A stretch of DNA of 15,231 nucleotides from an uncultured Ectothiorhodospiraceae bacterium (GCA_964416345.1 CAYQDX010000001.1:29033-44263), one strand, 5' to 3'; shown: positions 765-15,076, counted from the first letter of the stretch. Program-made: numbers and translations. Notes: a model not told the origin generated them from the letters alone.

Positions 765-808
765 CACCAAGCCGCATATCTGACCCAAGACATTCCGAAG
801 GGGCCTGG

Positions 809-1990: not shown

Positions 1991-2008
1991 GACCAGAGGC
2001 GGGCTGCG

Positions 2009-2554
2009 GTGGAGCAACACAAGATCATATTCACGGGCCCCGTCGGGGCGGGTAAGACCACGGCCATCAATGCGATTAGCGACATCCCAACGGTGCGCAC
2101 GGACGCCACGGCCACCGACATGACGGCGGGCCGCAAGCGTGTGACTACCGTGGCCCTGGATTTTGGCGTCATGAATCTAGGACCGGACGAGCGTATTCAT
2201 CTCTACGGCACCCCAGGCCAGGAGCGCTTCGACTTCATGTGGGAGATCCTGTCTAAGGGAGCCATCGGCCTCGTGCTGTTGCTCGACAACACCCGCGCCG
2301 ATCCCTCCGCCGACCTACGCTTCTTCGTGCAGGCGTTCCGTGGGTTCATCGACCGCACGGAGCTAGCGGTGGGGGTGACCCGCATGGACCTGAGCCCCAA
2401 GCCCCGGATCGCGGACTATCACAGCGCCATCCGCGGTGTTGGACTCAAGCCGCCCGTCTTCGCGGTCGACGCCCGGGAGTCCCGGGATGTCGGGCTGCTA
2501 ATTCAGGCCCTGCTCTACAGCCTGGATCCGGGTTTGGTGGCAGCCGATGAGTGA
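2009..2554 (+). CDS. Small Ras-like GTPase (MglA / conservon CvnD-like ATP/GTP-binding protein)
   Basis: 181 aa with a GTG start. P-loop GPVGAGKTT (aa 10-18). Switch II/G3 is GTPGQERF (aa 67-74), characteristic of the CvnD/MglA-like subfamily. The G4 position reads VTRMD instead of NKxD. AGAGG lies 9 nt upstream. Its stop overlaps the start of the next gene (ATGAGTGA). Confidence 0.8.
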   Translation: MEQHKIIFTGPVGAGKTTAINAISDIPTVRTDATATDMTAGRKRVTTVALDFGVMNLGPDERIHLYGTPGQERFDFMWEILSKGAIGLVLLLDNTRADPSADLRFFVQAFRGFIDRTELAVGVTRMDLSPKPRIADYHSAIRGVGLKPPVFAVDARESRDVGLLIQALLYSLDPGLVAADE

Positions 2555-3230
2555 GCTTACTTTGGCCCCGGAGACCTATGTGGTGCCAAGTCCGGCGGGC
2601 GCGTACTACGCGGCATCCAACCGCAGCCAGGAGCCGGCCCGCGCCCTGCTGTTTAGGCTCATGAGCCTAGGGCAGACGCCGATACTCACGACGGATCTGC
2701 TGCGATCCTGGCTGGGGGACCAGCAGGTGCACACGGGGCTGGAGCTGCTGTGGCACATGCAGTCGCTGGGCTGGATTCAGGGCGCCCGGCAGGCCCGTCC
2801 GGCGCCGGCCGGGGCGCTGGACGAGATTCTTCTGGGGATGCTGGCCGAGCTCTCCAGCGAGAAGAAGGCGCTGCTGGCCGACGACAGCGGCTTCTACGTC
2901 GCCAACTACGGTTATACCCACGAGGCCGCCGAGGAGCTTTCGGCCCTGAGCGGGCGCCTGGCGTCACTCTACGAGCGTCATCGCGGCCTGCTCTACAACA
3001 ATCTGGGAATTCCCTCGGCGGCCTGGGCCGTGGTCGACGCCGCCGGCAACAGCACGATCGGCTTCTGGCCACTGTACATCGGCGTCGAGCGCTTCGTTCT
3101 GGCCATCAGCGGCATGCCGCAGCTCAGTCAGCCGGCCTTCGTCGACCTGGTCTGGGCGCTGGCGCGCCGCTACGCAGATGTGCCGGAGGTCGCTCCCGAC
3201 GCAACCGTCGTGCCCGTGCACGGTACCTGA
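2547..3230 (+). CDS. Hypothetical 227-aa protein, translationally coupled to the GTPase gene
   Basis: The ATG at 2547 overlaps the GTPase stop by 8 nt. GC3-rich codon usage is consistent with the neighbouring genes. No family recognised from the sequence alone. It sits between the GTPase and Roadblock genes, which is the position taken by the DUF742-type CvnC partner in the actinobacterial gene order cvnA-cvnB(roadblock)-cvnC-cvnD(GTPase). This arrangement is hypothetical-REC-like, GTPase, unknown, roadblock, so the order differs. Confidence 0.6.
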   Translation: MSELTLAPETYVVPSPAGAYYAASNRSQEPARALLFRLMSLGQTPILTTDLLRSWLGDQQVHTGLELLWHMQSLGWIQGARQARPAPAGALDEILLGMLAELSSEKKALLADDSGFYVANYGYTHEAAEELSALSGRLASLYERHRGLLYNNLGIPSAAWAVVDAAGNSTIGFWPLYIGVERFVLAISGMPQLSQPAFVDLVWALARRYADVPEVAPDATVVPVHGT

Positions 3231-3306
3231 GCAGGAATACATTTGCCCGCGTGGCGCCGGTGCACCACGCATTAGACCCACAGACTGGGAATAGGAGAGC
3301 CTACTC

Positions 3307-3669
3307 ATGCGCGAAGACATGCTCACCTCCATACTGAATGATCTCAAGGGCACATCTGCGGATATCGAAGCCTCGGCGGTGATCTCCACCGATGGACTCA
3401 TCATGGCGGCCCAGCTTCCGCAAGGCATCGACGGCGACCGGGTGGGCGCCATGGCCGCCGCCATGCTGTCGCTGGGTGATCGCACCGCCCAGGAGCTCAG
3501 CCGCGGACTGCTGGAGCAGGTCCTGATAAGAGGCAACAAGGGCTACGTGCTCATGACTCATGCCGGGCCCGATGCGGTGCTCTCGGTGCTTGCCTCCTCC
3601 AATGCCAAGCTGGGCCTCATCTTCTTGGATGTTGCGCGGGCCGCGGAATCCATCGCCAAGCTGGTTTAG
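3307..3669 (+). CDS. Roadblock/LC7 domain protein (MglB / CvnB-like)
   Basis: 120 aa. SAVISTDGLIMAAQLP...DRVGAMAAAMLSLGDRTAQELSRGLLEQVLIRGNKGYVLMTHAGPDAVLSVLASSNAKLGLIFLDV is the typical Roadblock/LC7 alpha-beta pattern. A strong RBS AGGAGAG sits 7 nt upstream. Confidence 0.8.
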   Translation: MREDMLTSILNDLKGTSADIEASAVISTDGLIMAAQLPQGIDGDRVGAMAAAMLSLGDRTAQELSRGLLEQVLIRGNKGYVLMTHAGPDAVLSVLASSNAKLGLIFLDVARAAESIAKLV

Positions 3670-3696
3670 CGCGGCAAGTAGAACGGAGACCAAATT

Positions 3697-4056
3697 ATGG
3701 CCAACAAAGCGTTCTTTCTGCTGCGCATGAACGATCACGTCCAGTACCTGCACAAGATCCAGGCGACGCTGGAAGGTAGGGGCGACTTTCAGGGCACGGA
3801 CTGGCACGAGTGCAAGCTGGGCAAGTGGCTCTACGGCGAAGGTGTCGCCGAGGCGGAGGCAGCCGGCCCCGAGGTCAAGGCTCTATTCGACAGCCTGTTT
3901 GAGCCCCACGAGGCCTTCCACAAGGCCAGCCACAGCGCCTTGGGCAAGCAACAGGACGGCGACGAGCAGGGCTCACGGGAGGCCGTGACCGAGATGTACC
4001 GGCTGTCGAACACCCTGGTCGAGATGCTGCTGTCCTTGGATCAGAAAAGCAACTAG
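3697..4056 (+). CDS. Stand-alone CZB (chemoreceptor zinc-binding) domain protein
   Basis: Matches the published CZB motif exactly: H-x2-Y (HVQY), then 21 residues, then C-x-L-G-x-W (CKLGKW), then 26 residues, then H-x3-H (HEAFH). The RBS GGAGA precedes the ATG. It starts 27 nt after the roadblock gene, so it is probably co-transcribed. Confidence 0.8.
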   Translation: MANKAFFLLRMNDHVQYLHKIQATLEGRGDFQGTDWHECKLGKWLYGEGVAEAEAAGPEVKALFDSLFEPHEAFHKASHSALGKQQDGDEQGSREAVTEMYRLSNTLVEMLLSLDQKSN

Positions 4057-4361
4057 CGCGCTGGCCTCGGCGGGCCGGCATGATGCAGACCCGCTGAGAC
4101 ATTGCGGACTCGTCCTCTTGATCCACGGCGCACCCCGGCCGGTGCGCTGTGCCTCCTCCTATCGCTTGCGTCGACTCGCCGACTGGGACTTGACTTCCTG
4201 GGGGGCTGGCCCGGCATCATTTGGCCTCGGCGCGGCCCGGGTCAGGGTGCAGCGATCAACGCCTAGACTTGGACGAGGAGGCCGTGGTCCATGGAGACCG
4301 GCGAGGCTCAACGAGACCGTGAGATCGGCGACTGCCCGCCCAGGGGTATGCGGCCGGGCGC

Positions 4362-6002
4362 ATGATGAACAACAAGCTCATCCAGCTGCTGCGGCAGGAG
4401 ACCAAGGCCAACCTGCTGAAGCTATTCGTCGGCTTCATCATCATCGGCGTGACCAATGCCCTGGTGCTGGTCATCGTCCACGATGTCACGGAGGCCCAAG
4501 GTCTCGACGTGATCAATTTCCGGCTCTTGATGCTGTTCGTCCTGTGCGTGGCGACCTTCTGCTACACCAAAAGAGTAGTGAACATCTGGCTGACCACCCA
4601 CGTGCAGCAGGCCATCCTACAGCTGCGCTTGCGGATCCTGGACAAGGTGCGCAGCTCCAGGCTGATGTCCTACGAAGGTCTGGATCGCTCGCAGCTCATC
4701 AACGCGCTATCCGAGAATACCCTGGTCATCGTGGAGGGGGCCAAGTACTTCGGCGAGGGTGTGCCGGCGGCAATCATGCTGCTTTGCTCATTCATCTACG
4801 TCGGCGTGATCAGCAAGGCTGCCATGGTCATCGTCGCGGTGTGTGTGCCCGCGGCGGCAGTGGTGATCTGGGCTCTGAACCGCTCCATCGCCGAGGATCT
4901 CAACACGGCCATGCACAAGGAGGACGAGTTTCTCACCGCTTTCCATCAGCTGCTGGACGGGTTCAAGGAGCTGAAGATGAGCCGGCGCAAGAGCGGCGAC
5001 TTGTTCGACAATTACCTGAGCCGGTGCTCCAAGCAGGCCAAAGACCTGAACACCAAGGCCGCCGTGAGCGTGGTCCGCTCCGATATCTACAACTATTTGT
5101 TCTTCTATCTGCTGCTGGCATCGATGTTGTTCCTGCTGCCCAAGCTCACCGTCATCAGCGCCGGGGAGACCATGAGCATCACGACGATACTGCTGTTCCT
5201 GCTGGGCAACGGTACCGTATTCGTGCAGGCCCTGCCCAACATCACCAAGACCGACGTGGCCATCGGCAACATCACCCGCATGGAGGAGGCGCTCGACGAT
5301 CTGGAGCCGCCGGTGGACTCCAGCCTCGCCAATCCCTGGCTCCCCGAGGGGGACGAGCGGGACATTGTGCTGCGCAACCTCTATTTCAGCTACGCCGGGC
5401 CTCGGGACCAGAGCTTCTCGGTGCACGTGGACCACCTGACCGTCAAGGCCGGGGAGCTGCTCTATATCCAGGGTGGCAACGGCAGCGGCAAGTCAACGCT
5501 GCTCAAGCTCCTCACGGGACTCTACAGGCCTGCAGTGGGAAGCATCGAGTACGGCGGAACGGCGGTTTCGATGGAGAATCTGCAATACTACCGGGAGTGC
5601 TTCTCCATTATCTTCGCGGACTTCCATTTGTTCGACCGGGTCTACGGTCTGGAAGGCGTGGACGCGGGCAGGGTGGCGGAGCTGCTGGTGGAAATGCAGC
5701 TCAGCGCCAAGACTAGCTACGCCCAAGGGGCCTTCCGCAACCTCAATCTGTCCACGGGCCAACGCAAGCGTCTGGCGCTGCTGGTCGCGCTGCTGGAAGA
5801 CCGGCCGGTGTGCGTATTCGACGAGGTGGCCGCGGACCAGGATCCCCAGTTCCGCAAGTATCTCTACGAAGTGATGCTGCAGAACCTCAAACGCCAGGGA
5901 AAGACCATCATCGCGGTGACCCACGATGATCGCTACTTTCACACCGCGGACCGGGTGCTGAAGATGGAATACGGACGGCTGCTCGACGAGCAGGCCGAAT
6001 GA
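4362..6002 (+). CDS. ABC transporter, fused permease-ATPase, of the cyclic-peptide exporter family (YojI / PvdE / SyrD-like)
   Basis: 546 aa. The N-terminal ~300 aa hold six hydrophobic helices. The C-terminal NBD has Walker A GGNGSGKST, the ABC signature LSTGQRKRLALL, Walker B VFDEVAADQDP (the DE-AADQDP form typical of the cyclic-peptide transporter subfamily) and an H-loop VTHD. Confidence 0.85.
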   Translation: MMNNKLIQLLRQETKANLLKLFVGFIIIGVTNALVLVIVHDVTEAQGLDVINFRLLMLFVLCVATFCYTKRVVNIWLTTHVQQAILQLRLRILDKVRSSRLMSYEGLDRSQLINALSENTLVIVEGAKYFGEGVPAAIMLLCSFIYVGVISKAAMVIVAVCVPAAAVVIWALNRSIAEDLNTAMHKEDEFLTAFHQLLDGFKELKMSRRKSGDLFDNYLSRCSKQAKDLNTKAAVSVVRSDIYNYLFFYLLLASMLFLLPKLTVISAGETMSITTILLFLLGNGTVFVQALPNITKTDVAIGNITRMEEALDDLEPPVDSSLANPWLPEGDERDIVLRNLYFSYAGPRDQSFSVHVDHLTVKAGELLYIQGGNGSGKSTLLKLLTGLYRPAVGSIEYGGTAVSMENLQYYRECFSIIFADFHLFDRVYGLEGVDAGRVAELLVEMQLSAKTSYAQGAFRNLNLSTGQRKRLALLVALLEDRPVCVFDEVAADQDPQFRKYLYEVMLQNLKRQGKTIIAVTHDDRYFHTADRVLKMEYGRLLDEQAE

Positions 6003-6005
6003 ATC

Positions 6006-6185
6006 TCAAGCGGCCCGCTGATCCGGGCGCACCTTGTCCGAGGCGAATACCATGATGAGGCCGATGAACGGGGTGAACAGCAGAGAGGCGAAAAAGTAGC
6101 CCCAGAATCCGAACTTCCTGTGGTTGCCGAGGACGGCGACGATGACGCTGAGGAGTATGTACAGGGCTATCGCCGAGCTGAGCAT
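6006..6185 (-). CDS. Small 59-aa two-helix membrane protein (not in the ORF track because it is under 60 aa)
   Basis: Minus-strand ORF MLSSAIALYILLSVIVAVLGNHRKFGFWGYFFASLLFTPFIGLIMVFASDKVRPDQRAA. Two hydrophobic helices are separated by a basic loop (NHRKFG). GAGGTG lies 4 nt upstream of the ATG. It is co-oriented with the DUF697-like gene and 73 nt downstream of it. Confidence 0.4.
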   Translation of the reverse strand: MLSSAIALYILLSVIVAVLGNHRKFGFWGYFFASLLFTPFIGLIMVFASDKVRPDQRAA

Positions 6186-6258
6186 GGGGCACCTCGCGGC
6201 CGGTGGGATTCATGGCCTGGCACCGCACCCACCGATGCCAGGCCACGAGGTGTCGCTG

Positions 6259-6807
6259 CTAGGCGGCGGCGCCGGTGGTGTGCTGCTTGACCACCAGCTT
6301 GCCCTCCTGGAACTGCTGGGCGAAATAATCCTTCACGGCTTCCGGGTCGAAGTTGAGGAAGGTGCCGCCGGATTCGAAGTGCTGGATAAACACCTTGCCC
6401 AGCGCATAAGTGGCGGCGCCGGAGAGGCTGGGCATGGTGAGGGCGCCCAGGATCGGTCCGGCAATCGGGATGACGCGCAGGGCACTGTAGACCGGCCGTG
6501 CCACGGCCGCCGGTGCTGCACCCGCCAACAGCGGCGCGATGATGTTCTTCACCATATCGTGCGAGTACGGGATTTCGTATAGCTTGCTCAGCCGGTACAA
6601 CAGGTTGAGCTGAATGCCGGTGTTGCCCACGAAATCCAGCAGGGGCAGCGGAAGGACGCCCACGCCCACCGATGCGAGCACGTGCTTCAGAACTAGGGAA
6701 TTGGCTTGCTGGGCCTTGCCGGTGCTGACCGGGAGCTGAGCCTCTGCTGCCGCGTCCGTCTGCGGCTGGGTCGCGCCCTGGTCCGATGCGGTTGATTTTT
6801 CTGTCAT
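6259..6807 (-). CDS. DUF697-like (YcjF-type) domain protein
   Basis: 182 aa. The core GVLPLPLLDFVGNTGIQLNLLYRLSKLYEIPYS...PILGALTMPSLSGAATYALGKVFIQHFESGG follows the DUF697 consensus as I recall it (..PiPlaD......iq..m...ia..YG.......LGk....yF). The N-terminus is low-complexity and Ala/Gln-rich. The family assignment is from memory and should be confirmed by an HMM search. Confidence 0.6.
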   Translation of the reverse strand: MTEKSTASDQGATQPQTDAAAEAQLPVSTGKAQQANSLVLKHVLASVGVGVLPLPLLDFVGNTGIQLNLLYRLSKLYEIPYSHDMVKNIIAPLLAGAAPAAVARPVYSALRVIPIAGPILGALTMPSLSGAATYALGKVFIQHFESGGTFLNFDPEAVKDYFAQQFQEGKLVVKQHTTGAAA

Positions 6808-7087
6808 TGGCTGGCCTCGTTGGGGTGGTTACTACAGAGGCCGGTGAACCGCCGAGCTCATCGACCATCCGGGCTGTGAGCCTTATCACACGAGTCCTAA
6901 GGTTCTCAAAGCGGTGCGGCCGTGTCAATATAGCCCCGCGCCGTACGGCGCCATGCCCAGGGGGATTGGCCGGGGCGGGCGCCATGTCCCGGCGCGACCC
7001 TCAACGCTCGTGCCGGAGTGTGGCCGTGCCGGGACCGCCACGAGTCGGTGGCGAGGGGGGGGCTGCAGGCACAGGAGCTCCAAGCTG

Positions 7088-7390
7088 ATGACCACGATCG
7101 ACGTTTTTCCGGGCCAGGGCTCTGAGAAGAAGGGCATGGGGGCCGAGCTCGAAGCATTTCTGGCCGGCGTCGACTTTGCGCCCTTGCAGATTCCGGTTGT
7201 CTCGAATGTCCATGCCAGGCCCAACGCGCCGGGCGAGATCTGCCAGAATCTCGCCAGCCAGATGACCCACCCCTTGCGCGGGACCGAGAGCACCCAGTAC
7301 CTGCTGCGCCAGCCCGATCCGCAGATCGAGGAGGTCGGTCCCGGGACGGTGGGCGCGGGCCTCATTCCACAGATCAAGGCAGCCGCTTGA
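7088..7390 (+). CDS. Truncated FabD-like acyltransferase remnant. It keeps the N-terminal GQGS oxyanion region and the C-terminal helix, but lacks the GHSxGE nucleophile and the catalytic His.
   Basis: The 100-aa ORF starts at ATG 7088, with AGGAG 10 nt upstream. MTTIDVFPGQGSEKKGMGAELEAF aligns to the FabD N-terminus (FAFVFPGQGSQTVGM...). PLQIPVVSNVHARP...HPLRGTESTQYLLRQ...EEVGPGTVGAGLIPQI aligns to the FabD C-terminus (PTVPVVNNVDV...NPVQWTKSVEYM...YEVGPGKVLTGLTKRI). The ~200-aa catalytic middle is absent, and the deletion is in-frame. Confidence 0.5.
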   Translation: MTTIDVFPGQGSEKKGMGAELEAFLAGVDFAPLQIPVVSNVHARPNAPGEICQNLASQMTHPLRGTESTQYLLRQPDPQIEEVGPGTVGAGLIPQIKAAA

Positions 7391-8172
7391 GCTCATGCTC
7401 CGGCGCGGCCGGTGCCATGGCAGGCGCCCATGAGGCGGCGGGACCGGCCCTGCCGCTGCTGCTGGAGACGCGCGATGGTCCGCTGCGGGCCGCCTTTGCG
7501 CAGGTGGGTGCCGGCGAATATGCAGCCGTGGAGCACTCGCGCCGGATCTGGCTGCACCCGACGGAGCTGCGCTACTTGGACACGCTGAGCGCGGAGCGCC
7601 GCCGGCGCAGTTATCTGCTGGGTCGCTGCGCCGCCAAGCGCGCTCTGTGCTGTCTGCTGCCCCAGGCGCCCGCAGCGCAGCTAGAGGTCGCAAACGGGGT
7701 CTTCGGCCAGCCGGTGCTGCGCTATGCGACCTCAGAGCCCGTGGATCTCAGCATCAGCCATACGAATCAGCTGGGCTGCGCGCTGGCATTTCCCGCCCTG
7801 CATCCCATGGGGCTGGACGTGGAGCAGGTGAGCGTCGAGCGGGCGCACGTCATGCAGAGCCAGATGGTGGCGGAAGAGCTAGCCGCCGCAGAAGCGGCGG
7901 TGGGCTCGGCGCCGGCGGCGTGTGCCCTGCTGTGGACCGCCAAGGAGGCCCTGTCCAAGGCGCTGCGCTGCGGCATGACCTGTCCCTTCGAGCTGATGGC
8001 CGTGGCCGGCATCGAGGGTGAGCCCCCCGCGCTGGGGGGACGTTTCCGCAATTTCGGCCAGTACCAATTCCAAACCTGGATTGGCGCCGGGACGGTGCTC
8101 AGCCTGGTGCTGCCCCGCAGCAGCCGGCTGTTGACGGACCTGAGCTCTGCGGCGGCCGGGATGCCGGCGTGA
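7387..8172 (+). CDS. 4'-phosphopantetheinyl transferase (Sfp/EntD-type PPTase)
   Basis: PPTase motifs are present: LGRCAAKRAL (like motif P1/P2 L-GR-AAKEA), SISHT, GLDVEQV (G-x-D-x-E) and WTAKEALSKAL (W-x-x-KEA-x-K). The listed start is TTG 7387, overlapping the upstream stop. The first in-frame ATG is at 7417, so the exact start is uncertain. Confidence 0.8.
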   Translation: MSSCSGAAGAMAGAHEAAGPALPLLLETRDGPLRAAFAQVGAGEYAAVEHSRRIWLHPTELRYLDTLSAERRRRSYLLGRCAAKRALCCLLPQAPAAQLEVANGVFGQPVLRYATSEPVDLSISHTNQLGCALAFPALHPMGLDVEQVSVERAHVMQSQMVAEELAAAEAAVGSAPAACALLWTAKEALSKALRCGMTCPFELMAVAGIEGEPPALGGRFRNFGQYQFQTWIGAGTVLSLVLPRSSRLLTDLSSAAAGMPA

Positions 8173-9155
8173 GTCCTGTCATTTGGATGTGCTCCGGTCA
8201 GGGCTCCCAGTATTACCACATGGGCAAGGACCTCTACGACGCCGAGCCCGTCTTTCGCGGCACCATGGATTCCTGCAGCGAGATCCTGCGACCCATGATC
8301 GGCTTGTCGCTGAGCGAGCTGCTGTACAGGCCCCGTGCCGATCGCTTCGCGGCCTTCGACCGGACCCTCTACAGCGGACCCGCCATCTGCTGCCTGCAGT
8401 ATGCCGTGGCCCAGCTGCTGCGCGCCCGCGGCTGCGCACCCGACGCGGTGCTGGGCTACAGCATTGGGGAGGTATCCGCCGCAGTCATCGCCGGCGGGCT
8501 GACACTTGCAGACGGGTTGGAGGCAGCTGTGCGGCTTGCCGAGCTGTTGGAAGCGCGGATCCCGGAGGGCGGCATGCTGGCCGTGCTGGCCAGGCCGGAG
8601 ATCCTACGGGCACGGCCGGATGTGTTTGCCGGCACCTGGGTCTCCGCCTGGAACTTCCCCGCCCATTTCGTCCTGAGCGGCACAGGCCACGCCATCGCCC
8701 GGGTAGAGCAAGGCCTTGCGGTCCACCAAATCGGCTGCCAGCGCCTGCCGGTGCGCTTCGCCTTTCATTCGCCCCTGATCGAGCCCATAGGCGAGGCGCT
8801 GATGGCGCATCTGGCACGGCTCGATTACCGGCAGCCGCGCATGGCGCTGATCTCGGCGACGCTGGGCGGTGACAGGCTGGAGCCGTCACCGGAGATCCTG
8901 TGGGGTGTGCTGCGCCAGCCGGTGGACTTCGCGCGCACCGTGCAAGTCATCGAAGGCTGGGGGCCCCACACTTATGTGGATCTGGGGCCGTCTGGCACGC
9001 TGGCGACGTTCGTGAAGTACAACCTGTCCGCGAGCTCCGAATCTAGGGTAGCGTCCACCGTCACGCCCTTCGGTCGGGCCGTGCAGAACATGGAGGGCGA
9101 TCTGCTGCGACCGGTGCGACGGCAAGCCGCGGACCCCGGTAGGTCGTCACCCTAG
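8169..9155 (+). CDS. Acyltransferase of the malonyl-CoA:ACP transacylase (FabD/PKS-AT) fold, with GYSIGE at the nucleophile elbow
   Basis: 328 aa. The GTG start at 8169 overlaps the PPTase stop (GTGA). SGQGSQYYHMG matches the oxyanion region. LGYSIGEVSAAVIAGG matches GHSLGEYSAL of FabD, with Tyr in place of His. The Arg in LLEARIPEGG, and AFHSPL carrying the catalytic His, are both present. Confidence 0.8.
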   Translation: MSPVIWMCSGQGSQYYHMGKDLYDAEPVFRGTMDSCSEILRPMIGLSLSELLYRPRADRFAAFDRTLYSGPAICCLQYAVAQLLRARGCAPDAVLGYSIGEVSAAVIAGGLTLADGLEAAVRLAELLEARIPEGGMLAVLARPEILRARPDVFAGTWVSAWNFPAHFVLSGTGHAIARVEQGLAVHQIGCQRLPVRFAFHSPLIEPIGEALMAHLARLDYRQPRMALISATLGGDRLEPSPEILWGVLRQPVDFARTVQVIEGWGPHTYVDLGPSGTLATFVKYNLSASSESRVASTVTPFGRAVQNMEGDLLRPVRRQAADPGRSSP

Positions 9156-9320
9156 CGGCTCTTTGGCGCCGTCTCCGGGACCGCCATGCACCCGGAGCTC
9201 GCACCGATGTGGGATGGGCATGCTCGACGGGACAAGCGCTTGCATGTGGGGTGGCGAATACCGAAGATCGGGCGGCCGGCATGCGGCAGCCACGGTGGTC
9301 AGGGTGATCTTGTGAGCCGA

Positions 9321-10679
9321 ATGAGCAGATTCCTGGTACGCTTCTACCCGTCGCTCGTTGCCGTGGTGCTGGGCGCGGTGACTCTGGGGCTGCTCATGGT
9401 GCCGGGTGAGGTAGGACCCGAGATTCACGGCGTCCGCGGCTGGCTCTCGGTCTACGCGGCGCATATCACCGTGGTGCTGTTGGTGGCCGCCCTGATTTGG
9501 GCCAATGCGGCGCGCGAGCGACTGGCGGCCGTCAGCGACCGAGGGCGCCGCTGGGTGCGCCGTCAGATCATCCCACTGGCGGTCGTTGGGCTGCTCTTCG
9601 TCTGGCTGTTCATCTACCTCATCCCCAACATCTTCATCTTCGTCAAGCCCGGCGAGGGCGGGGTCCTGTGGCACCGCTTCGGCAACGGCACGGTCACAGA
9701 CAGGTCCTACGGCGAAGGCACACACATCATCCTGCCGTGGGACCTGATGTACATATACAATGTCAGGCTGCAGAATCGGACCCAAGTATTCGAAGTGCTG
9801 TCCAAGGACGGCCTGCTCTACCACGTGGCCCTCACCATCCGCTTCAGGCTGATCCTCGAGGATCTGGGTCTGCTGCATCAGCACGTGGGACCGGACTACG
9901 TCAACACGCTCATCTTTCCCGAGCTCGGCTCCCATGCCCGGGCGCTGATGGCTCAATACCGCGCAGATGAGGTCTACACGACCCGGCGTCTGGAAATCGA
10001 GAACGAGATTCTCGCCCGGCTGCGCCGGGAGATGGTGGTGGGCTACATCCCGGAGGTCAAGCGGGAGAGCTACCTGCATGTCGAGAATGTACTGGTTCGC
10101 CAGATCATCCTGCCGAAGAAGGTGGCAGACGCCATCGAGAACAAGCTGGCTCAGGAGCAAATGATGCTGGAGTACGACTTCCGTCTCGGCAAGGAAATGA
10201 AAGAGGCCGAGCGCAAGCGCATCGAAGCTTACGGTATCCGCGACTTCCAGTCCATTGTGCGGCAGGGCATCTCGGAGCAGCTGCTCAAGTGGAAGGGCAT
10301 CAACGCCACCCTGGAGCTGGCCAGGTCGAACAACAGCAAGATCGTGGTCATCGGTGCGGGCAAGGAAGGGATGCCGCTTATCCTCGGCGGCTTCGACAGC
10401 TCAGCGTCCGCAGCGAGATCAACGCCGGCGAATCCGCAAGGGAGTGTCGGCTCGTCCGAGGACGGTCAATCCACCGAGTCCCAGGGACTGGACTGGCTAC
10501 AACCAGAAGCCTCGGAGACCGGCCTCAGCGCGGCACCGGATGGCAGCCGCGCCGAGCCTGCCTTGCCGGCGATGGACTACAAGCCGGCGCCATCCGCGGT
10601 CGCGCCGGCGGGGCGTGCCCCTGACGGCAACACCGCCGGCGGGCGTGCGGCCCCGGTGACACAGCCTCCCATGCCCTGA
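9321..10679 (+). CDS. SPFH/Band-7 (prohibitin/HflC-like) domain membrane protein with a long low-complexity C-terminal tail
   Basis: The listed ORF 9186..10679 was trimmed to ATG 9321; an alternative GTG at 9312 lies 4 nt after AGGGTGA. There are three hydrophobic segments before VKPGEGGVLWHRFGNGT...THIILPWDLMYIYNVRLQNRTQVFEVLSKDGL...VALTIRFRL, which is the SPFH core pattern. A coiled-coil-like segment follows. The last ~110 aa are rich in Pro/Ala/Ser/Gly. Confidence 0.75.
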   Translation: MSRFLVRFYPSLVAVVLGAVTLGLLMVPGEVGPEIHGVRGWLSVYAAHITVVLLVAALIWANAARERLAAVSDRGRRWVRRQIIPLAVVGLLFVWLFIYLIPNIFIFVKPGEGGVLWHRFGNGTVTDRSYGEGTHIILPWDLMYIYNVRLQNRTQVFEVLSKDGLLYHVALTIRFRLILEDLGLLHQHVGPDYVNTLIFPELGSHARALMAQYRADEVYTTRRLEIENEILARLRREMVVGYIPEVKRESYLHVENVLVRQIILPKKVADAIENKLAQEQMMLEYDFRLGKEMKEAERKRIEAYGIRDFQSIVRQGISEQLLKWKGINATLELARSNNSKIVVIGAGKEGMPLILGGFDSSASAARSTPANPQGSVGSSEDGQSTESQGLDWLQPEASETGLSAAPDGSRAEPALPAMDYKPAPSAVAPAGRAPDGNTAGGRAAPVTQPPMP

Positions 10680-10714
10680 GACCGTCAATTTACGGGCGTT
10701 TCTCACGCGCACGC

Positions 10715-11224
10715 TCACGGCTGCGTATTGAGGGCGACGAGCTCTTTGAGCGTATCGGGATCGTCCCAGTCTCGCTTGCCCACGACGTGCATTGCCACGC
10801 GGCCTTTCGGATCCAGCACGTAGGTGGCGGGCAGCAGCTGTATGCCCCATTCCTGACTCACCGCCGCATCCGGGTCCAACAGCACGGGGAAGCTCACTGG
10901 GGAGTCATCCAGGAAGCGCTGGATTTGGTACTGCGTCTGGGCGATGTTGAGGGCTAGCACCTGAACGTCATTGCGTCGCAGCCGCCTCCAGGCTTGCTGC
11001 AGGCTTGGCATTTCCTCGCGGCACGGACCGCACCAGGTCGCCCAAAAGGTCACGACCACGACCTTGCCGCGATAGTCGCTCAGGCGATGGGTTGCACCGT
11101 CCAGATCGGACAGATTGAATTCCGGAAGCATGGATGCCGTGGTCGTCGGCACTGTTTCGGCGGCGTGGGCGCCGGCCGCAAATAGCAGCGTGGTCCAAAA
11201 CATGGCGGTGAGCAATAGGCGCAT
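10715..11224 (-). CDS. Secreted TlpA/ResA-like thioredoxin-fold thiol:disulfide oxidoreductase (redoxin family)
   Basis: The listed ORF 10715..11413 was trimmed to Met at 11224, which is preceded by AAAGGAG with a 9-nt spacer. The N-terminus MRLLLTAMFWTTLLFAAGAHAAE is a signal peptide. The active site is WATWCGPC (CxxC). The remainder is a typical TlpA-like fold (VVVVTFWATWCGPCREEMP...LLDPDG). Confidence 0.8.
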   Translation of the reverse strand: MRLLLTAMFWTTLLFAAGAHAAETVPTTTASMLPEFNLSDLDGATHRLSDYRGKVVVVTFWATWCGPCREEMPSLQQAWRRLRRNDVQVLALNIAQTQYQIQRFLDDSPVSFPVLLDPDAAVSQEWGIQLLPATYVLDPKGRVAMHVVGKRDWDDPDTLKELVALNTQP

Positions 11225-11397
11225 CGTAGTATTCTCCTTTGACGTGCCAGAGGGTCCATCTGGCGGGCATCCCAGCGGCATTCGCCTACTAATCTGGAAT
11301 TGTCTGCATTGAATACCGAATAGAGTTTTCGTTGCCGATCCAAGGGTCACAATGCAGCTAGAGATGCGCGCGTCGATGCAACTGCCGCATACTGCTG

Positions 11398-11415
11398 TTG
11401 TGACAGGCCCCACAA
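11398..11415. promoter_or_regulatory. Second CRP-like site TTGTGA-caggcc-CCACAA
   Basis: Near-palindrome: 5 of 6 bases match per arm, and TGTGA-N6-CCACA compares with the TGTGA-N6-TCACA consensus. It lies ~175 bp upstream of the tlpA-like start codon. Confidence 0.25.
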
Positions 11416-11568
11416 TTCCTACTTTCGGTGTGACGGACGGCAGACTTGCAGGTAGGTCGGACGGGACCTAGGCGCCGAATGCCCCGCGGATTGTGACGCA
11501 GAATTTGCCGCGGGTAGCTGCGTCAACAAAGGCGGGTCGGGCGTGGCGATCGCGAGGCGCGAGCCATT

Positions 11569-11584
11569 CGTGACGTGTGTCACG
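11569..11584. promoter_or_regulatory. Perfect CRP-family palindrome cGTGAC-gtgt-GTCACg (core GTGA-N6-TCAC) in a divergent non-coding region
   Basis: The sequence CGTGACGTGTGTCACG is a 6+6 inverted repeat with a 4-nt centre. It fits the CRP/Vfr-type core GTGA-N6-TCAC. It lies in the 1.1-kb non-coding region between the divergent tlpA-like and Sel1 genes. Confidence 0.3.
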
Positions 11585-12251
11585 TGAAGTTTGTGCGGGA
11601 ATTCTTTTGGCACGTGCAATCCGTGCGCGCCGGTCAATCGAGAGTGGGTCTTCGCTTCGCGTGCTTTGCGGCTTGACCAGAGTGCTTTTTCTTCGGTCCG
11701 GAGCAAACGAGCGCTCTCGGCAAGGCGGAAGGATGGCAAGGAATTCTATATCGTGGTCCGTGCTATTCCCGGTCGAATGCTTTTGATTGCGAAGCAGCGC
11801 AAATTCGTCAATGCGGAATTGGTTGGAGCTAGTCCGCCGAGCGTCGCTGCAATTTATAGGCTTGAACCGGTACCGCGATATGTCTATTTCTGCACCCCGG
11901 GTACGGGGTTACGGCTTTGCTTTTCTTGTAGGTTCTTGCGTCAAGTCGATCCCGGGCAGCCACTATTTCGGCGGTACTCTGCCGAAGCCGCAATCGTCGC
12001 TGAGCAAGGGCCGCGGAAAGAAATAATTGTCCCAAGATTGCGCCGGATATGGGGACGGATTCAAGGCGCGGCAAGGGGCGCATAGCCCGGACTATGCAAC
12101 GCTTGCCACCGCATCCCGCTCGGCCGCCTGCGAGCTGCCGGCCGGCAATCCACCGGCCAATAGGCGGAGCGCGCTTCGGTGCACGTCGCTCCATTTTGCG
12201 GTGTGGGCTTCCGTCGAGTGTCGCAGGGGCTCGATTGTCAGTCGCAAGATA

Positions 12252-12257
12252 TATAAT
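12252..12257 (+). promoter_or_regulatory. TATAAT -10-like hexamer upstream of the Sel1-repeat gene
   Basis: ATATATAATATT is the only strongly AT-rich patch within 100 nt upstream of ATG 12312. The -35 is unclear, because TTGTCA at 12235-12240 is too close. Confidence 0.2.
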
Positions 12258-12311
12258 ATTCAGCCTTCGCCTCGGCTACGATCAAGGCGCTGCAATTCCC
12301 TGGAGAGCACT

Positions 12312-13073
12312 ATGAAACGGATTGCCGGCTGCTTGCTGATCTTTTTCATGATCGGGATGAGTGCCCGGGCGGAGCATTCCGAGTCGGATTTTGCGAGGGG
12401 TCTCAGCGCATATGGCAAAGGTGATTTCGCCGCCGCACTGGCAAGCTGGCGCCCATTGGCCGAGCAGGGCAACCCGGTGGCACAGCTCAACGTTGGCGTC
12501 ATGTTTGCCAAAGGCGAGGGCGTGGCCCAGGACGATGGTCAGGCGGTCGAGTGGATTCGCAAGGCTGCGAGTCAGGGCTATGCTCAGGCCCGGCTCAGTC
12601 TGGCCAACATGTACTTCGCCGGCCGCGGGGTGTCGAAGGATTTGCCGCAGGCGGCCACACTCTACCGTCAGGCGGCTGAGCAGGGCAATTCTGTTGCGCA
12701 GCAGAATGTCGCCAACATGTACTACAAGGGCCAGGGTGTGGCGCGGGACGAGCAGGCCGCCGCCCAGTGGTATCTCAAGGCGGCGGCTCAGAACCAGGCA
12801 CTGGCGCAGTACAATGTCGGTGTCATGTACGCCATAGGACACGTGGGACTGGAGCAGGACTACGCCCAAGCCTATCTGTGGCTGACGCTTGCCTCCCGTA
12901 GAGGAGTGGGGCCGGCGGAAGCCGCGCTGGAGCAGATTTCTGCGAAGATGAGCCCCGAGGCCGTCGCGCGGGGGAAGGCTCTGGTAGAGCGCTGGCGCCC
13001 GCAGACGATGGCCGGACCCGGTGGGACCGCCGGTGCGTCATCGGCGACCCCTAAGCCGCAAGTCATCCCCTAG
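12312..13073 (+). CDS. Secreted Sel1-like repeat (SLR/TPR-family) protein
   Basis: The listed ORF 12027..13073 was trimmed to ATG 12312, with GGAGAG 4 nt upstream. The N-terminus MKRIAGCLLIFFMIGMSARA is a signal peptide. About five Sel1 repeats follow (A-x-L-G-x-MY-x-G-x-GV-x-D-x-x-A-x-WY-x-KAA-x-QG). Confidence 0.8.
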   Translation: MKRIAGCLLIFFMIGMSARAEHSESDFARGLSAYGKGDFAAALASWRPLAEQGNPVAQLNVGVMFAKGEGVAQDDGQAVEWIRKAASQGYAQARLSLANMYFAGRGVSKDLPQAATLYRQAAEQGNSVAQQNVANMYYKGQGVARDEQAAAQWYLKAAAQNQALAQYNVGVMYAIGHVGLEQDYAQAYLWLTLASRRGVGPAEAALEQISAKMSPEAVARGKALVERWRPQTMAGPGGTAGASSATPKPQVIP

Positions 13074-13844: not shown

Positions 13845-13868
13845 AGGCGCACGGCTCCGGGTGCGCCT
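13845..13868. terminator. GC-rich hairpin between the convergent small ORF and glcF (candidate bidirectional terminator)
   Basis: aGGCGCAC-ggctccgg-GTGCGCCt gives an 8-bp stem and an 8-nt loop. On the plus strand it is followed by a short CTTTGG run. It lies exactly between the two convergent stop codons (13826 and 13868). Confidence 0.3.
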
Positions 13869-15076
13869 CAGCTTTGGTCCAGCAGCGTAATCCAGTGTGC
13901 CACCGGGACGTCCGCAGCGGTGTCCAGGTGGAGCTGGCAGCCGATGTTCGCCGTGGCGATGAGCTCCGGCCGTTGCTGCTGCAGCTGGCTGAGCTTGCGC
14001 TCGCGCAGCCTGGCGGCCAGCTCAGGTTGGAGTATGGAATAGGTTCCCGCCGACCCGCAGCACAGGTGGCTCTCGGCTACCGGGACCAGCTCATGGCCGA
14101 GCCGCGTGAGTATGCCTTCCACGAGCCCCCGCAAGCCCTGGCCGTGCTGAAGGGTGCAGGGCGGATGGAAGGCGATGCGCCGGATGGGTGTGGGGCGTAG
14201 CGCCTCTAGCGGCTCCGTTGCGAGCACTTCGCTGAGGTCTCGCGCCAGGGCGGCGATGCGCTCGGCCTTGGCCGCATAGCGCGGATCGCCTGCCAAATGG
14301 TGGCCGTAGTCCTTGATGAGGACTCCGCAGCCACTGGCGGTGCTGACGATGGCCTCGACGCCGGCCTCCACCTCGGGCCACCAGGCGTCGATGTTGCTGC
14401 GCATCTGCGCCCGCGCCTCGGCCTCGGCACCCAGGTGGGCGCTGACGGCACCGCAACAGCCCTCGCCCCGCACGCCGACAGGCTGGATGCCCAGCCGATC
14501 CAGCACCCGTGCGGCGGCGGCATTGATGTCAGGCGTCAGGGCCGGCTGCACGCAGCCCTCCAGCAGCAGCACGCGGCGTTCGCGCTTCCCCTCGGGACGT
14601 GCCGCGGCGACGACCCTGGCGGGCACCTTGCCCGCGAGGCGCCGAGGCAGCAGCGGGCGCAGCACCTGACCCAGGCGCAGCGCCGGGGTAAACAGCCAGC
14701 GTGTGGTGAGTGCCCGCCGCAGCAGCCAGCGCAGGCTGCGCTCCCCGGGGCCGCGCGGTGCGCGCTGCTCGATGAGCGGGCGCACGATATCCAGCAGGCG
14801 GCCGTACTGCACGCCGGACGGGCAGGTGGTCTCACAGTTGCGGCAGGTCAGGCAGCGGTCCAGATGCAGGCGCGTGCGCCGTGAGGTCTTGCCGCCTTCC
14901 AGCATCTGCTTCATCAAGTAGATGCGACCGCGCGGGCCGTCCAGCTCGTCGCCCAGCAACTGGTACGTGGGACAGGTGGCGTTGCAGAAGCCGCAGTGCA
15001 CGCAGGCGCGCAGGATCCGGTCGGCCTCCCGTCCCTGGGGGGACTCTTTGATGAAGTCGGCGAGATGAGTTTGCAC
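13868..15076 (-). CDS. glcF: Glycolate oxidase iron-sulfur subunit GlcF
   Basis: 402 aa with a GTG start. The N-terminus (V/M)QTHLADF...[38 protein letters not shown] is near-identical in pattern to E. coli GlcF. A second ferredoxin motif is [12 protein letters not shown]. The C-terminal CCG-type cysteine motifs CCGAV and CCGSAG are present. Confidence 0.9.

What the first reader, a model, noticed from the sequence alone, without database searches (positions are those of the whole stretch)
7088..9155. Orphan, translationally coupled AT-remnant / PPTase / acyltransferase operon with no ACP, KS or NRPS partner in 15 kb
Sfp-type PPTases and trans-acting ATs normally accompany PKS, PUFA-synthase or NRPS genes. 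Here the only neighbours are a cyclic-peptide-type ABC exporter, membrane proteins and an SPFH protein. The AT has Tyr instead of His at the nucleophile elbow (GYSIGE). This is unusual for FabD and suggests a specialised, non-housekeeping substrate. The pair may prime and load a carrier protein encoded elsewhere, or serve an undescribed lipid or metabolite modification pathway.
Basis: partly seen in the sequence, partly recalled or inferred. Interest (0 to 1): 0.5.

Follow-up and report, generated by a model that had tools for sequence, protein, structure and literature searches.

The report
Gutted trans-AT polyketide cluster remnant
The three genes are the helper genes of a trans-AT polyketide synthase cluster (a dead loading enzyme, a carrier-protein activator and a proofreading hydrolase), left here without the synthase they normally serve, so this is an ordinary cluster remnant and not a new pathway.

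Summary
The three ORFs exist as described: a 100-codon AT stub (7088-7390), a two-domain PPTase (7417-8172) and a 328-aa AT-fold protein (8169-9155). No ACP, KS or NRPS lies in the 15 kb.

The third gene is not a loading AT. Its best solved relative is PksD, the bacillaene acyl hydrolase (AH). It keeps the Ser-His dyad, lacks the malonyl-binding Arg, and its GYS elbow is normal for this family (117 of 122 homologues).

The neighbours are not unrelated. In relatives the same AT-PPTase-AH string continues into trans-ER, ACP, KS, HMG-CoA synthase and ECH genes and adjoins a ~8,000-aa trans-AT PKS. The window's ABC exporter (67% identical), DUF697 and SPFH genes recur in those clusters.

Here the core genes are absent, and the PksC/DisD-type AT carries an in-frame ~181-codon deletion that removes Ser, Arg and His. 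Independent assemblies reproduce two of the junctions.

PPTase plus AH (pN/pS 0.18) and the ABC gene (0.12) still look constrained. I therefore read this as a gutted trans-AT PKS cluster. Loss of the core is the more likely history, but relocation elsewhere in the genome cannot be excluded, because the rest of the 44-kb contig and genome were not retrievable. It is a new member of a known kind, of low to moderate interest.

The parts
4362..6002 (+). ABC exporter (fused permease and ATPase, TIGR01194 / YojI-like). It is the counterpart of the exporter that sits between the megasynthase and the AT/AH genes in intact clusters.
   Evidence: Pfam ABC_tran; TIGR01194 276 bits, NF007813 315 bits. It is 67% identical over 543 aa to the ABC gene that lies between an 8,533-aa PKS gene and the AH gene in L002, and 62% identical to the equivalent gene in L007. 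Window versus strain L092: 33 synonymous and 12 nonsynonymous changes, pN/pS 0.12.
6259..6807 (-). DUF697 membrane protein, divergent from the operon. It recurs next to the same accessory genes in relatives.
   Evidence: Pfam DUF697 34 bits. It is 59% identical to the DUF697 gene in the same divergent position in L006. DUF697 is also found in L008, L103, L108 and L162.
7088..7390 (+). Dead remnant of a PksC/DisD-type trans-acting malonyl-CoA:ACP acyltransferase. An in-frame internal deletion of about 181 codons has its junction near 7157-7159.
   Evidence: It aligns to L006 AT residues 1-25 and 207-280 only. GHSxG Ser, the Arg and the FHS His are all within the missing part. Six of the 24 columns it still covers that are at least 90% conserved are mutated (GQGSQ to GQGSE, W to G and others), against 0-2 of 24 in intact ATs. 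The intact counterpart scores 349 bits on TIGR00128 and best matches PksC 5dz6 (334 bits) and DisD (333 bits), above E. coli FabD at 200 bits.
7417..8172 (+). Two-domain (Sfp/EntD-type) 4'-phosphopantetheinyl transferase, intact. The ORF opens at TTG 7387.
   Evidence: Pfam ACPS 45.5 bits. A profile of cluster-linked homologues hits AcpS, EntD, Sfp and the human PPTase. The motifs SISH, HPMGLDVE and WTAKEALSK are conserved with 16 homologues that lie beside AH genes, almost all with PKS-type genes in the same locus. It is 70% identical to L175, 52% to L006 and 50% to L103.
8169..9155 (+). AT-fold acyl hydrolase (AH, PksD/PedC clade), intact. It belongs to a variant-pocket subclade with Gly70 and Leu123 in place of PksD His71 and Gln124.
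   Evidence: Best PDB hit is PksD 8avz at E 1.5e-62 and 215 bits, with the next hit at 131 bits. S98, H200, F199 and Q11 are conserved. Leu123 sits at the FabD Arg117 position and Tyr97 precedes the nucleophile. The GTG start overlaps the PPTase stop as GTGA. Homologues at 49-69% identity lie inside trans-AT PKS clusters or their accessory strings.
9132..9320 (.). Presumed right-hand deletion scar. Similarity to the closest relative ends inside the last ~8 codons of the AH gene. In L175, L006, L103, L007 and L002 a trans-ER gene starts at this point.
   Evidence: The DNA alignment of window against L175 stops at about 9131. In L175 the ER gene overlaps the AH stop. The AH C-terminal tail differs between strains (P0129). 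No ER, ACP or KS trace was found.
9321..10679 (+). SPFH/Band-7 membrane protein (ORF opens at 9186). Related SPFH genes occur in three related trans-AT PKS loci.
   Evidence: Pfam Band_7 77.5 bits. It is 45% identical to the SPFH gene that follows ECH-DUF697-ABC in L103, 41% to one in L108 and 37% to one in L102. The AH-to-SPFH junction is reproduced in the independent assembly L001.

Best explanation
Window 7088-9155 is the trans-acting service section of a trans-AT polyketide synthase gene cluster.

It holds three genes. The first is a PksC/DisD-type malonyl-CoA:ACP acyltransferase gene, reduced by an in-frame deletion to a catalytically dead 100-codon stub. The second is an intact Sfp/EntD-type PPTase, whose normal job is to convert the PKS's apo-ACP domains to the holo form. 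The third is an intact AT-fold acyl hydrolase of the PksD/PedC clade. Its normal job is to take stray acetyl or short acyl groups from ACP domains onto its active-site Ser and hydrolyse them, freeing blocked carriers. It does not load carriers.

The flanking ABC exporter, DUF697 and SPFH genes belong to the same cluster family. In relatives the AT-PPTase-AH string runs directly into trans-ER, free ACP, KS, HMG-CoA synthase and two ECH genes (a beta-branching cassette) and adjoins a ~8,000-aa megasynthase. In this genome every carrier-protein and chain-building gene is absent from the locus. It is therefore a gutted cluster. Most likely the core was deleted; less likely it was moved elsewhere.

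The surviving PPTase, AH and ABC genes still evolve under purifying selection.

Shown here: gene identities, synteny, the AT deletion, absence of core genes from the window, and strain-level constraint. Inferred: hydrolase activity, the direction of events (loss), and what the survivors now act on.
For: AH identity:
- PksD (8avz) is the top solved relative at 215 bits, with the next hit at 131 bits. S98, H200, F199 and Q11 are kept and there is no Arg at the FabD Arg117 position.
- These are the AH criteria given in PMC11775670.
- A Bacillus atrophaeus gene 68% identical to PksD, with an AT-ER gene immediately downstream, is among the loci that the AH profile retrieved.

Synteny:
- L175 (AH 69%, PPTase 70% identical): PPTase-AH-ER.
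- L006 (AH 55%): DUF697(-) | AT-PPTase-AH-ER-ACP-KS.
- L103 (AH 50%): PKS-AT-PPTase-AH-ER-ACP-KS-HMGS-ECH-DUF697-ABC-SPFH.
- L007 and L002: a 7,870- or 8,533-aa PKS, then ABC, then AT/AH, ER, ACP, (KS), HMGS and two ECH genes. Their ABC genes are 62% and 67% identical to the window's.
- Census: 80 of 88 homologue loci with at least 5 kb on both sides carry a KS, PKS, HMGS, ER or AT partner.

Decay:
- The AT stub lacks Ser, Arg and His and has 6 of 24 conserved columns mutated. Its intact counterpart is PksC/DisD-like.
- No trace of core genes was found in the window.
- Homology to L175 ends at the AH 3' end, exactly where the ER gene starts in relatives.

Not an artefact: the AH-to-SPFH and CZB-to-ABC junctions recur in independent Logan and JGI assemblies.

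Constraint: PPTase plus AH show 8 synonymous and 4 nonsynonymous changes, pN/pS 0.18, binomial p 0.004. The ABC gene shows 33 and 12, pN/pS 0.12.
Against: - The rest of the 44,263-bp source contig and the genome could not be retrieved. A PKS core elsewhere, or even beyond the window ends, is not excluded.
- Purifying selection on PPTase, AH and ABC after the cassette was lost is not what a purely decaying relic predicts. It fits a still-used module.
- The strain comparison rests on only 12 substitutions for PPTase plus AH.
- The AH pocket differs from PksD at two positions (Gly70, Leu123) where Ala substitutions inactivate PksD (PMC11775670). Hydrolase activity and acetyl preference are therefore extrapolations.
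- Gene order differs among relatives. The ABC gene is upstream in the window, L002 and L007 but downstream in L103 and L108. The ancestral arrangement, and hence the number of deletions, is inferred.
Confidence: 0.6

Rival explanations
1. Split but working cluster. The megasynthase, a functional malonyl-AT and the beta-branching cassette lie elsewhere in the genome. The window's PPTase, AH and ABC exporter still serve that pathway in trans.
For: PPTase plus AH and the ABC gene are under purifying selection in strains that already share the cassette-less junctions. All catalytic motifs are intact. These enzymes act in trans by nature (PMC11775670). A few homologues in other genomes also lack a PKS within 10 kb on either side.
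Against: The cluster's own malonyl-AT is dead, which is unexpected if the pathway is in use. In every informative close relative the core genes are contiguous with these accessory genes. This rival needs relocation of about 30 kb or more plus a replacement AT, which is less parsimonious than loss. No data from the rest of the genome are available.
Confidence: 0.28
2. Exapted survivor module. After the core was lost, the exporter, DUF697 and SPFH membrane genes were kept as immunity against the polyketide made by relatives. The PPTase and AH were kept because they now service other carrier proteins.
For: The ABC gene has pN/pS 0.12 without an adjacent PKS. PPTase plus AH have pN/pS 0.18. Three separate biosynthetic losses contrast with intact export and membrane genes. 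[quoted passage not shown]
Against: This is entirely inferential. No target carrier protein or toxin is known. The PPTase is evolving about twice as fast at the protein level as ABC, DUF697 and AH in the divergent strain: roughly 5.6% against 2.5-3% (my count on the sequences). The AH evidence alone is 3 synonymous against 1 nonsynonymous change.
Confidence: 0.15
3. One reading: a specialised non-FabD acyltransferase and a PPTase that prime and load a distant carrier protein in an undescribed lipid or metabolite-modification pathway.
For: The protein is indeed not FabD. Its pocket (Gly70, Leu123, Leu248) is more hydrophobic than PksD's, so a neutral acyl substrate other than acetyl is conceivable. 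A few AH-like genes sit far from any PKS, for example in Tistlia (L003) and Sulfidibacter (L011).
Against: The whole neighbourhood is syntenic with trans-AT PKS clusters. The same variant-pocket subclade occupies the AH slot beside a bona fide malonyl-AT in L006, L007 and L103. The GYS motif is the family norm. The missing Arg is described as diagnostic of hydrolases, not loaders (PMC11775670).
Confidence: 0.05
4. Assembly or binning artefact: a chimeric contig joins a cluster fragment to unrelated DNA.
For: The source is a metagenome-derived contig. GC content varies from 0.60 to 0.69 across the region.
Against: The AH-to-SPFH-to-TlpA stretch is colinear at 98.9% nt identity in an independent Logan assembly. 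The CZB-to-ABC junction is seen in at least four other assemblies from different samples. The collection records the ABC gene, the PPTase and the upstream GTPase each with a longest contig of the same length, a 15,113-bp JGI contig, and DUF697, PPTase and AH likewise with a 4,564-bp Logan contig. Those contigs were not read.
Confidence: 0.02

Closest known systems
PksD (Bacillus subtilis bacillaene AH, PDB 8AVZ) and PedC (pederin AH): trans-AT PKS acyl hydrolases
   Same: Same AT-type fold family, and PksD is the best solved relative (36% identity, 215-219 bits). The Ser-His dyad, the xFHS Phe and the oxyanion Gln are conserved. There is no Arg at the malonyl-binding position and a non-His residue precedes the nucleophile. 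It is a stand-alone ~320-aa protein. Its closest homologues lie between a PksC-like AT and a trans-ER gene, next to the PKS's other trans-acting genes.
   Different: The pocket residues differ: Gly70, Leu123 and Leu248 replace PksD His71, Gln124 and Val249. These are positions where Ala substitutions kill PksD. About 15 of the loci collected share this Gly/Ser/Asn + Leu/Met pocket. There is no PKS or ACP at this locus. Activity is untested.
PksC / DisD AT: trans-acting malonyl-CoA:ACP acyltransferases of trans-AT PKSs
   Same: The intact counterpart of the stub (L006 AT) best matches PksC 5dz6 and DisD at about 333 bits. The stub keeps the N-terminal FPGQGS and the C-terminal VSN...GPG segments and the same position upstream of the PPTase and AH genes.
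   Different: About 181 residues are missing, including the nucleophilic Ser, the malonyl-binding Arg and the catalytic His. Further conserved residues are mutated. It cannot be an active AT.
Sfp / EntD-type (group II) PPTases encoded in secondary-metabolite clusters
   Same: It is a ~250-aa two-domain protein with the ACPS domain and the metal- and CoA-binding motifs. The profile matches Sfp (1QR0) and EntD (7BCZ). PPTase homologues were detected in 9 of the 88 homologue loci that have at least 5 kb on both sides, and 16 such homologues were extracted from all loci.
   Different: It is highly divergent. A single-sequence search finds no solved structure at E<=0.01. No carrier protein is nearby.
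pksC-pksD-pksE plus HMGS-cassette organisation of bacillaene-type trans-AT PKS clusters
   Same: Relatives (L006, L007, L103) have a PksC-like AT, a PksD-like AH, a PksE-like trans-ER, and a free ACP, KS, HMGS and two ECH genes beside the megasynthase.
   Different: The window keeps only the AT stub, the AH, a PPTase and the export and membrane genes. The ER, ACP, KS, HMGS, ECH and megasynthase genes are absent. The recurrent ABC + DUF697 + SPFH set is, to my knowledge, not a described feature of the bacillaene cluster.

Membership tests
Trans-AT PKS acyl hydrolase (AH; PksD/PedC clade) | AT-type fold (Acyl_transf_1), closer to AHs than to ATs | tested here: met
   PF00698 at 161 bits. PksD 8avz at 215 bits against 131 for the best AT domain and about 61 for E. 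coli FabD. The PksC-like AT of L006 scores only about 79 bits on this gene.
Trans-AT PKS acyl hydrolase (AH; PksD/PedC clade) | Ser-His catalytic dyad, conserved Phe of xFHS and oxyanion Gln | tested here: met
   S98, H200, F199 and Q11 align to PksD S99, H201, F200 and Q12. Criteria are from PMC11775670.
Trans-AT PKS acyl hydrolase (AH; PksD/PedC clade) | No Arg at the malonyl-binding position (FabD Arg117), described as diagnostic of an AH | tested here: met
   Leu123 occupies the position. The usual residue is Gln or His. Leu or Met occurs in the window's subclade. An Arg sits one residue earlier (R122), but that position is variable across the family.
Trans-AT PKS acyl hydrolase (AH; PksD/PedC clade) | Residue before the nucleophile is not the His of GHSxG | tested here: met
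   GYSIGE. Tyr is found in 117 of 122 homologues.
Trans-AT PKS acyl hydrolase (AH; PksD/PedC clade) | PksD-type pocket residues His71 and Gln124, which are required for PksD activity | tested here: not met
   Gly70 and Leu123. These features define the PksD pocket rather than the clade. The protein is therefore filed as an AH-clade member with a variant pocket.
Trans-AT PKS acyl hydrolase (AH; PksD/PedC clade) | Encoded within a trans-AT PKS cluster | tested here: not met
   No KS, ACP or PKS in the 15-kb window. The feature is met for homologues: 80 of 88 loci, and the closest relatives L175, L006, L103, L007 and L002.
Trans-AT PKS acyl hydrolase (AH; PksD/PedC clade) | Hydrolyses short acyl-ACP thioesters and does not transfer malonyl | not testable with these tools
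   Needs an intact-protein MS assay with acyl-ACPs.
Housekeeping FabD (malonyl-CoA:ACP transacylase) | Scores above the TIGR00128 equivalog cut-off, with GHSxG and Arg117 | tested here: not met
   For 8169-9155: 101.7 bits against a cut-off of 260.9, GYS in place of GHS, and Leu at the Arg position. For the stub: 65.9 bits, with the catalytic core missing.
Trans-acting malonyl-AT of trans-AT PKS (PksC/DisD type), applied to the stub 7088-7390 | Complete ~280-aa AT with nucleophilic Ser, Arg and His | tested here: not met
   Only residues equivalent to 1-25 and 207-280 remain. It is homologous by descent but is not a functional member.
Sfp/EntD-type (group II) PPTase | Two-domain ~230-250-aa protein with the ACPS domain and conserved metal- and CoA-binding motifs | tested here: met
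   251 aa. PF01648 at 45.5 bits against a cut-off of 25; 4PPT_N is weak at 16.8 bits. HPMGLDVE and WTAKEALSK are conserved. The profile hits EntD, Sfp and AASDHPPT.
Sfp/EntD-type (group II) PPTase | Transfers phosphopantetheine from CoA to apo-carrier proteins | not testable with these tools
   Needs a biochemical assay.
Complete trans-AT PKS biosynthetic gene cluster | KS-containing megasynthase with ACP domains, plus an active trans-AT | tested here: not met
   None is present in the window and the AT is dead. The rest of the genome could not be examined.

The most novel reading that the evidence does not exclude
After the polyketide assembly line was lost, the remaining genes (ABC exporter, DUF697, SPFH, PPTase and a variant-pocket AH) persisted as a selected, self-standing module. 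It might act as immunity or export against the compound made by relatives that still carry the full cluster. Alternatively the PPTase and AH may have been co-opted to service another carrier protein. That would also mean the Gly/Ser/Asn + Leu/Met AH subclade has a substrate range different from PksD's.
Probability: 0.18. Interest if true: 0.5.

Novelty: new member of a known kind. Interest (0 to 1): 0.22.

Why it matters
The main value is corrective. An apparent orphan AT/PPTase pathway turns out to be the accessory end of a trans-AT PKS cluster that has lost its core. Genome miners should not count it as a producing cluster or as a new pathway.

Three smaller points may be useful to specialists:
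- It is a clear natural example of stepwise cluster erosion. The biosynthetic genes are gone or dead, while the exporter, PPTase and hydrolase still show purifying selection.
- Some uncharacterised proteobacterial trans-AT PKS clusters share an accessory set of ABC exporter, DUF697 and SPFH genes.
- A minority AH subclade replaces two residues that are essential in PksD. This bears on how AH substrate range is set and could be engineered.

Tried and rejected
- Walking along the source contig failed. The 328-aa AH, GlcF and the GTPase are not indexed for context look-up, although cluster look-up shows they come from a 44,263-bp NCBI contig. Look-ups on shared proteins returned only short Logan and JGI contigs, which extend the view by about 1.2 kb upstream with no PKS.
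- The species-representative genome scan found no close relative; the best AH match was 46% identical. No genome of this organism could be searched for a PKS.
- The stub is not a duplicate of the downstream AH, and it is unrelated to the ER gene of L002.
- The FabD hypothesis for 8169-9155 was rejected.
- The promoter and terminator scan and the tRNA scan of the region found nothing, so there are no mobility or boundary markers.
- A single-sequence PDB search with the PPTase found nothing. A profile was needed.
- dN/dS against the 69%-identical relative was not attempted because synonymous sites would be saturated. Near-identical strains were used instead.
- An assembly artefact was considered and rejected, because independent assemblies reproduce the junctions.
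- Structure prediction was not run. Sequence evidence was already decisive, and the tools give no residue-level pocket read-out.
Full report
**1. Observation**

The window is GC-rich (0.58-0.71) and densely coded.

- ORF 7088-7390 (100 aa) has no Pfam hit. It matches the FabD model TIGR00128 in two pieces only, the N-terminus and model positions 209-288 of 290.
- ORF 7387-8172 carries the PPTase domain PF01648 at 45.5 bits against a cut-off of 25.
- ORF 8169-9155 carries PF00698 (Acyl_transf_1) at 161 bits and has the elbow GYSIGE.

Pfam and NCBIfam scans of all other sizeable ORFs give the following gene map:

| Coordinates | Strand | Gene |
|---|---|---|
| 48-764 | + | TPR protein |
| about 809-1990 | + | unknown, 393 aa |
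| 2009-2554 | + | ATP_bind_1 / MglA-like GTPase |
| 2547-3230 | + | unknown, 227 aa |
| 3307-3669 | + | Roadblock/LC7 |
| 3697-4056 | + | CZB-domain protein |
| 4362-6002 | + | ABC exporter |
| 6259-6807 | - | DUF697 |
| 7088-9155 | + | the three ORFs |
| about 9321-10679 | + | SPFH/Band 7 |
| 10715-11413 | - | TlpA/ResA-like redoxin |
| 12027-13073 | + | Sel1-repeat protein |
| 13868-15076 | - | GlcF |

There is no PP-binding, KS, condensation or adenylation domain anywhere. tblastn with ACP, KS, HMGS, ECH, ER and PKS sequences from intact relatives finds nothing credible at E<1.

Only the PPTase/AH overlap (GTGA at 8169-8172) is good evidence of translational coupling. The gene calls of L006 show the same 4-nt overlap. 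The PPTase most likely starts at ATG 7417, 26 nt after the stub's stop.

**2. What the 328-aa 'acyltransferase' is**

Against all PDB sequences the best hit by a wide margin is PksD, the acyl hydrolase (AH) of the bacillaene trans-AT PKS. PksD (8avz) scores E 1.5e-62 and 215 bits. The next hit is the CurL AT domain at 131 bits, and E. coli FabD scores about 61 bits. The FabD equivalog model scores 101.7 bits against a cut-off of 260.9.

The paper that solved PksD (PMC11775670) lists what distinguishes AHs from ATs:
- a Ser-His dyad;
- a conserved Phe (xFHS) and an oxyanion Gln;
- absence of the malonyl-binding Arg (FabD Arg117), usually replaced by Gln or His and called 'diagnostic of an AH';
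- a non-His residue before the nucleophile, which is not critical for activity.

In the HMMER alignment the window protein has S98, H200, F199 and Q11. It has Leu123 at the Arg position and Tyr97 before the Ser. Tyr97 is not an oddity: 117 of 122 database homologues have GYS. Among about 170 loci from genomes and metagenomes, Y, A, V, T and S dominate at this position, and His marks the true ATs in the tail of the list. A Bacillus atrophaeus gene 68% identical to PksD, with an AT-ER gene directly downstream, is among the loci the AH profile retrieved.

There is one real difference. The window protein and its nearest relatives have Gly/Ser/Asn at the PksD His71 position and Leu/Met at the Gln124 position, about 15 loci in all. 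About 97 loci have the canonical His + Gln/His pocket. H71A and Q124A inactivate PksD. This subclade must therefore shape its pocket differently. In L006, L007 and L103 it sits beside a genuine malonyl-AT, and my tblastn with the window AH found no second AH-like gene in those loci.

**3. The stub and the PPTase**

Against the intact 283-aa AT of locus L006, the stub aligns to residues 1-25 (72% identity; window 7088-7159) and 207-280 (57%; 7157-7378). This is a clean in-frame deletion of about 181 codons.

In an alignment with 73 intact ATs, the missing part holds GHSLGE, the Arg and the FHS His. Of the 24 columns at least 90% conserved that the stub still covers, six are changed (GQGSQ to GQGSE, F to L, I to M, V to L, W to G, L to G). 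Intact ATs show 0-2 changes in the same columns. The intact counterpart scores 349 bits on TIGR00128. Its best solved relatives are PksC (334 bits), DisD (333 bits) and PksE (301 bits), the trans-acting malonyl-ATs of trans-AT PKSs, well above E. coli FabD at 200 bits. The stub is a dead trans-AT gene.

The PPTase is divergent, with no PDB hit by single sequence. A profile of it and seven homologues from loci that also encode an AH matches AcpS, EntD, Sfp and the human PPTase. Its length (251 aa) and its motifs (SISH, HPMGLDVE, WTAKEALSK) are conserved with 16 homologues that lie beside AH genes. It is an intact two-domain Sfp/EntD-type enzyme.

**4. Context in relatives**

Gene order in the window and in related loci:

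| Locus | AH identity to window | Gene order |
|---|---|---|
| Window | n/a | ABC, DUF697(-), AT stub, PPTase, AH, SPFH |
| L175 | 69% (PPTase 70%) | PPTase-AH-trans-ER; the ER start overlaps the AH stop |
| L006 | 55% | DUF697(-) then AT-PPTase-AH-ER-ACP-KS; DUF697 59% and PPTase 52% identical to the window's |
| L103 | 50% | PKS-AT-PPTase-AH-ER-ACP-KS-HMGS-ECH-DUF697-ABC-SPFH, all on one strand; SPFH 45% identical to the window's |
| L007 | 52% | 7,870-aa PKS-ABC-AT-AH-ER-ACP-KS-HMGS-ECH-ECH |
| L002 | 54% | 8,533-aa PKS-ABC-AH-ER-ACP-HMGS-ECH-ECH |

The window's ABC exporter is 67% identical over its full length to the L002 exporter and 62% to that of L007. L108, L102 and L098 show AT-AH-ABC, with SPFH and/or DUF697 nearby in L108 and L102.

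Of 88 homologue loci with at least 5 kb on both sides, 80 carry a KS, PKS, HMGS, ER or AT partner, and nine carry a PPTase.

So every gene from 4362 to 10679 in the window has a counterpart in a family of trans-AT PKS clusters with a beta-branching cassette. What the window lacks is exactly the carrier-protein and chain-building part. DNA similarity to L175 stops about 20 nt before the AH stop, where the ER gene begins in relatives. The AH tail is also unstable between strains.

**5. Is it real, and is it still used?**

An independent Logan assembly (L001) is colinear with window 7294-12036 at 98.9% nt identity and has the same AH-to-SPFH junction. At least four other assemblies from different samples show the CZB-to-ABC junction. 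Chimerism is therefore unlikely.

Window versus L001:
- PPTase: 5 synonymous and 3 nonsynonymous changes.
- AH: 3 synonymous and 1 nonsynonymous.
- Together: pN/pS 0.18, binomial p 0.004 against neutrality. This is similar to SPFH at 0.14.

Window versus L092: the ABC gene has 33 synonymous and 12 nonsynonymous changes, pN/pS 0.12.

Both strains already lack the cassette (L001) or an upstream PKS (L092). These genes have therefore been constrained since the rearrangement. The numbers for PPTase plus AH are small. In a more divergent strain the PPTase protein differs by about 5.6%, against 2.5-3% for ABC, DUF697 and AH (my count on the sequences).

**6. Explanation and rivals**

Best explanation: this is the accessory part of a trans-AT PKS cluster whose core is gone from the locus. 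It consists of a dead PksC-type AT, a live PPTase and a live AH, plus the exporter and membrane genes.

I rate the gene identities and cluster origin at about 0.9. I rate 'core lost rather than relocated' at about 0.55-0.6. The cluster's own AT is dead, and in all informative relatives the core is contiguous with these genes.

The main rival is a split but working cluster (about 0.28). The purifying selection supports it, and it could not be tested because the rest of the 44,263-bp contig and the genome are not retrievable here.

A related, more novel reading is that the survivors are kept for immunity or for other carrier proteins (about 0.15-0.18). An artefact is very unlikely.

**7. Host and novelty**

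GlcF is at most 72% identical to anything in the protein collection. The best named hits, at 64-67%, are Thiobacillaceae, Hydrogenophilales, Thiohalorhabdus and unclassified Gammaproteobacteria MAGs. The host is therefore an uncultured proteobacterium with no close sequenced relative.

The kinds of gene involved, and cluster erosion as such, are well known. The locus is a new member of a known kind.

Three points are mildly interesting: the selective survival of export, PPTase and AH functions; the recurrent ABC/DUF697/SPFH accessory set; and the variant AH pocket. Interest is scored 0.22.

Noticed in passing
window 48-4056: A conserved string: TPR protein, 393-aa unknown, MglA/ATP_bind_1-like GTPase, 227-aa unknown, Roadblock/LC7 and a CZB zinc-binding-domain protein. 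It looks like a conservon-like small-GTPase signalling module. The same order is seen in six other assemblies. The CZB gene shows a relatively high pN/pS of 0.37 between strains.
   Followed up: partly
window 11740-11975: Twelve of the 53 substitutions between the window and strain L001 fall in about 230 bp of intergenic DNA upstream of the Sel1-repeat gene (12027-13073). That is about 5% divergence against about 1% elsewhere.
   Followed up: no
window 8169-9155; L002, L003, L006, L007, L008, L097, L103, L175: An AH subclade has Gly/Ser/Asn at the PksD His71 position and Leu/Met at the Gln124 (FabD Arg117) position. Canonical AHs have His + Gln/His there. Both positions are essential in PksD. 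The substrate range of this subclade is unknown.
   Followed up: partly
L003 (Tistlia sp.), L011 (Sulfidibacter corallicola), L012 (Sporomusa ovata), L044 and L055 (Paenibacillus), L097, L156, L163: AH-like genes with no KS, PKS, AT, ER or HMGS gene within 10 kb on either side. They may sit at the edges of very large clusters or be genuinely stand-alone.
   Followed up: no
L103 17120-20869; L108 7578-11560; L102 2943-12055; L162 5994-9814: DUF697, a TIGR01194-like ABC exporter and an SPFH/Band-7 protein recur next to trans-AT PKS accessory genes in several unrelated metagenomic loci. This suggests a conserved membrane or export module for this uncharacterised cluster family.
   Followed up: partly
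window 9100-9155 and protein P0129: The AH C-terminal tail differs between strains (...RPVRRQAADPGRSSP against ...RPERRQSPGPR) and from L175. This fits an unconstrained tail next to the presumed deletion breakpoint.
   Followed up: partly
window 4001-6000 versus 7001-9000: The ABC exporter region has lower GC (0.60-0.62) than the AT-stub/PPTase/AH region (0.68-0.69), although both belong to the same cluster family.
   Followed up: no
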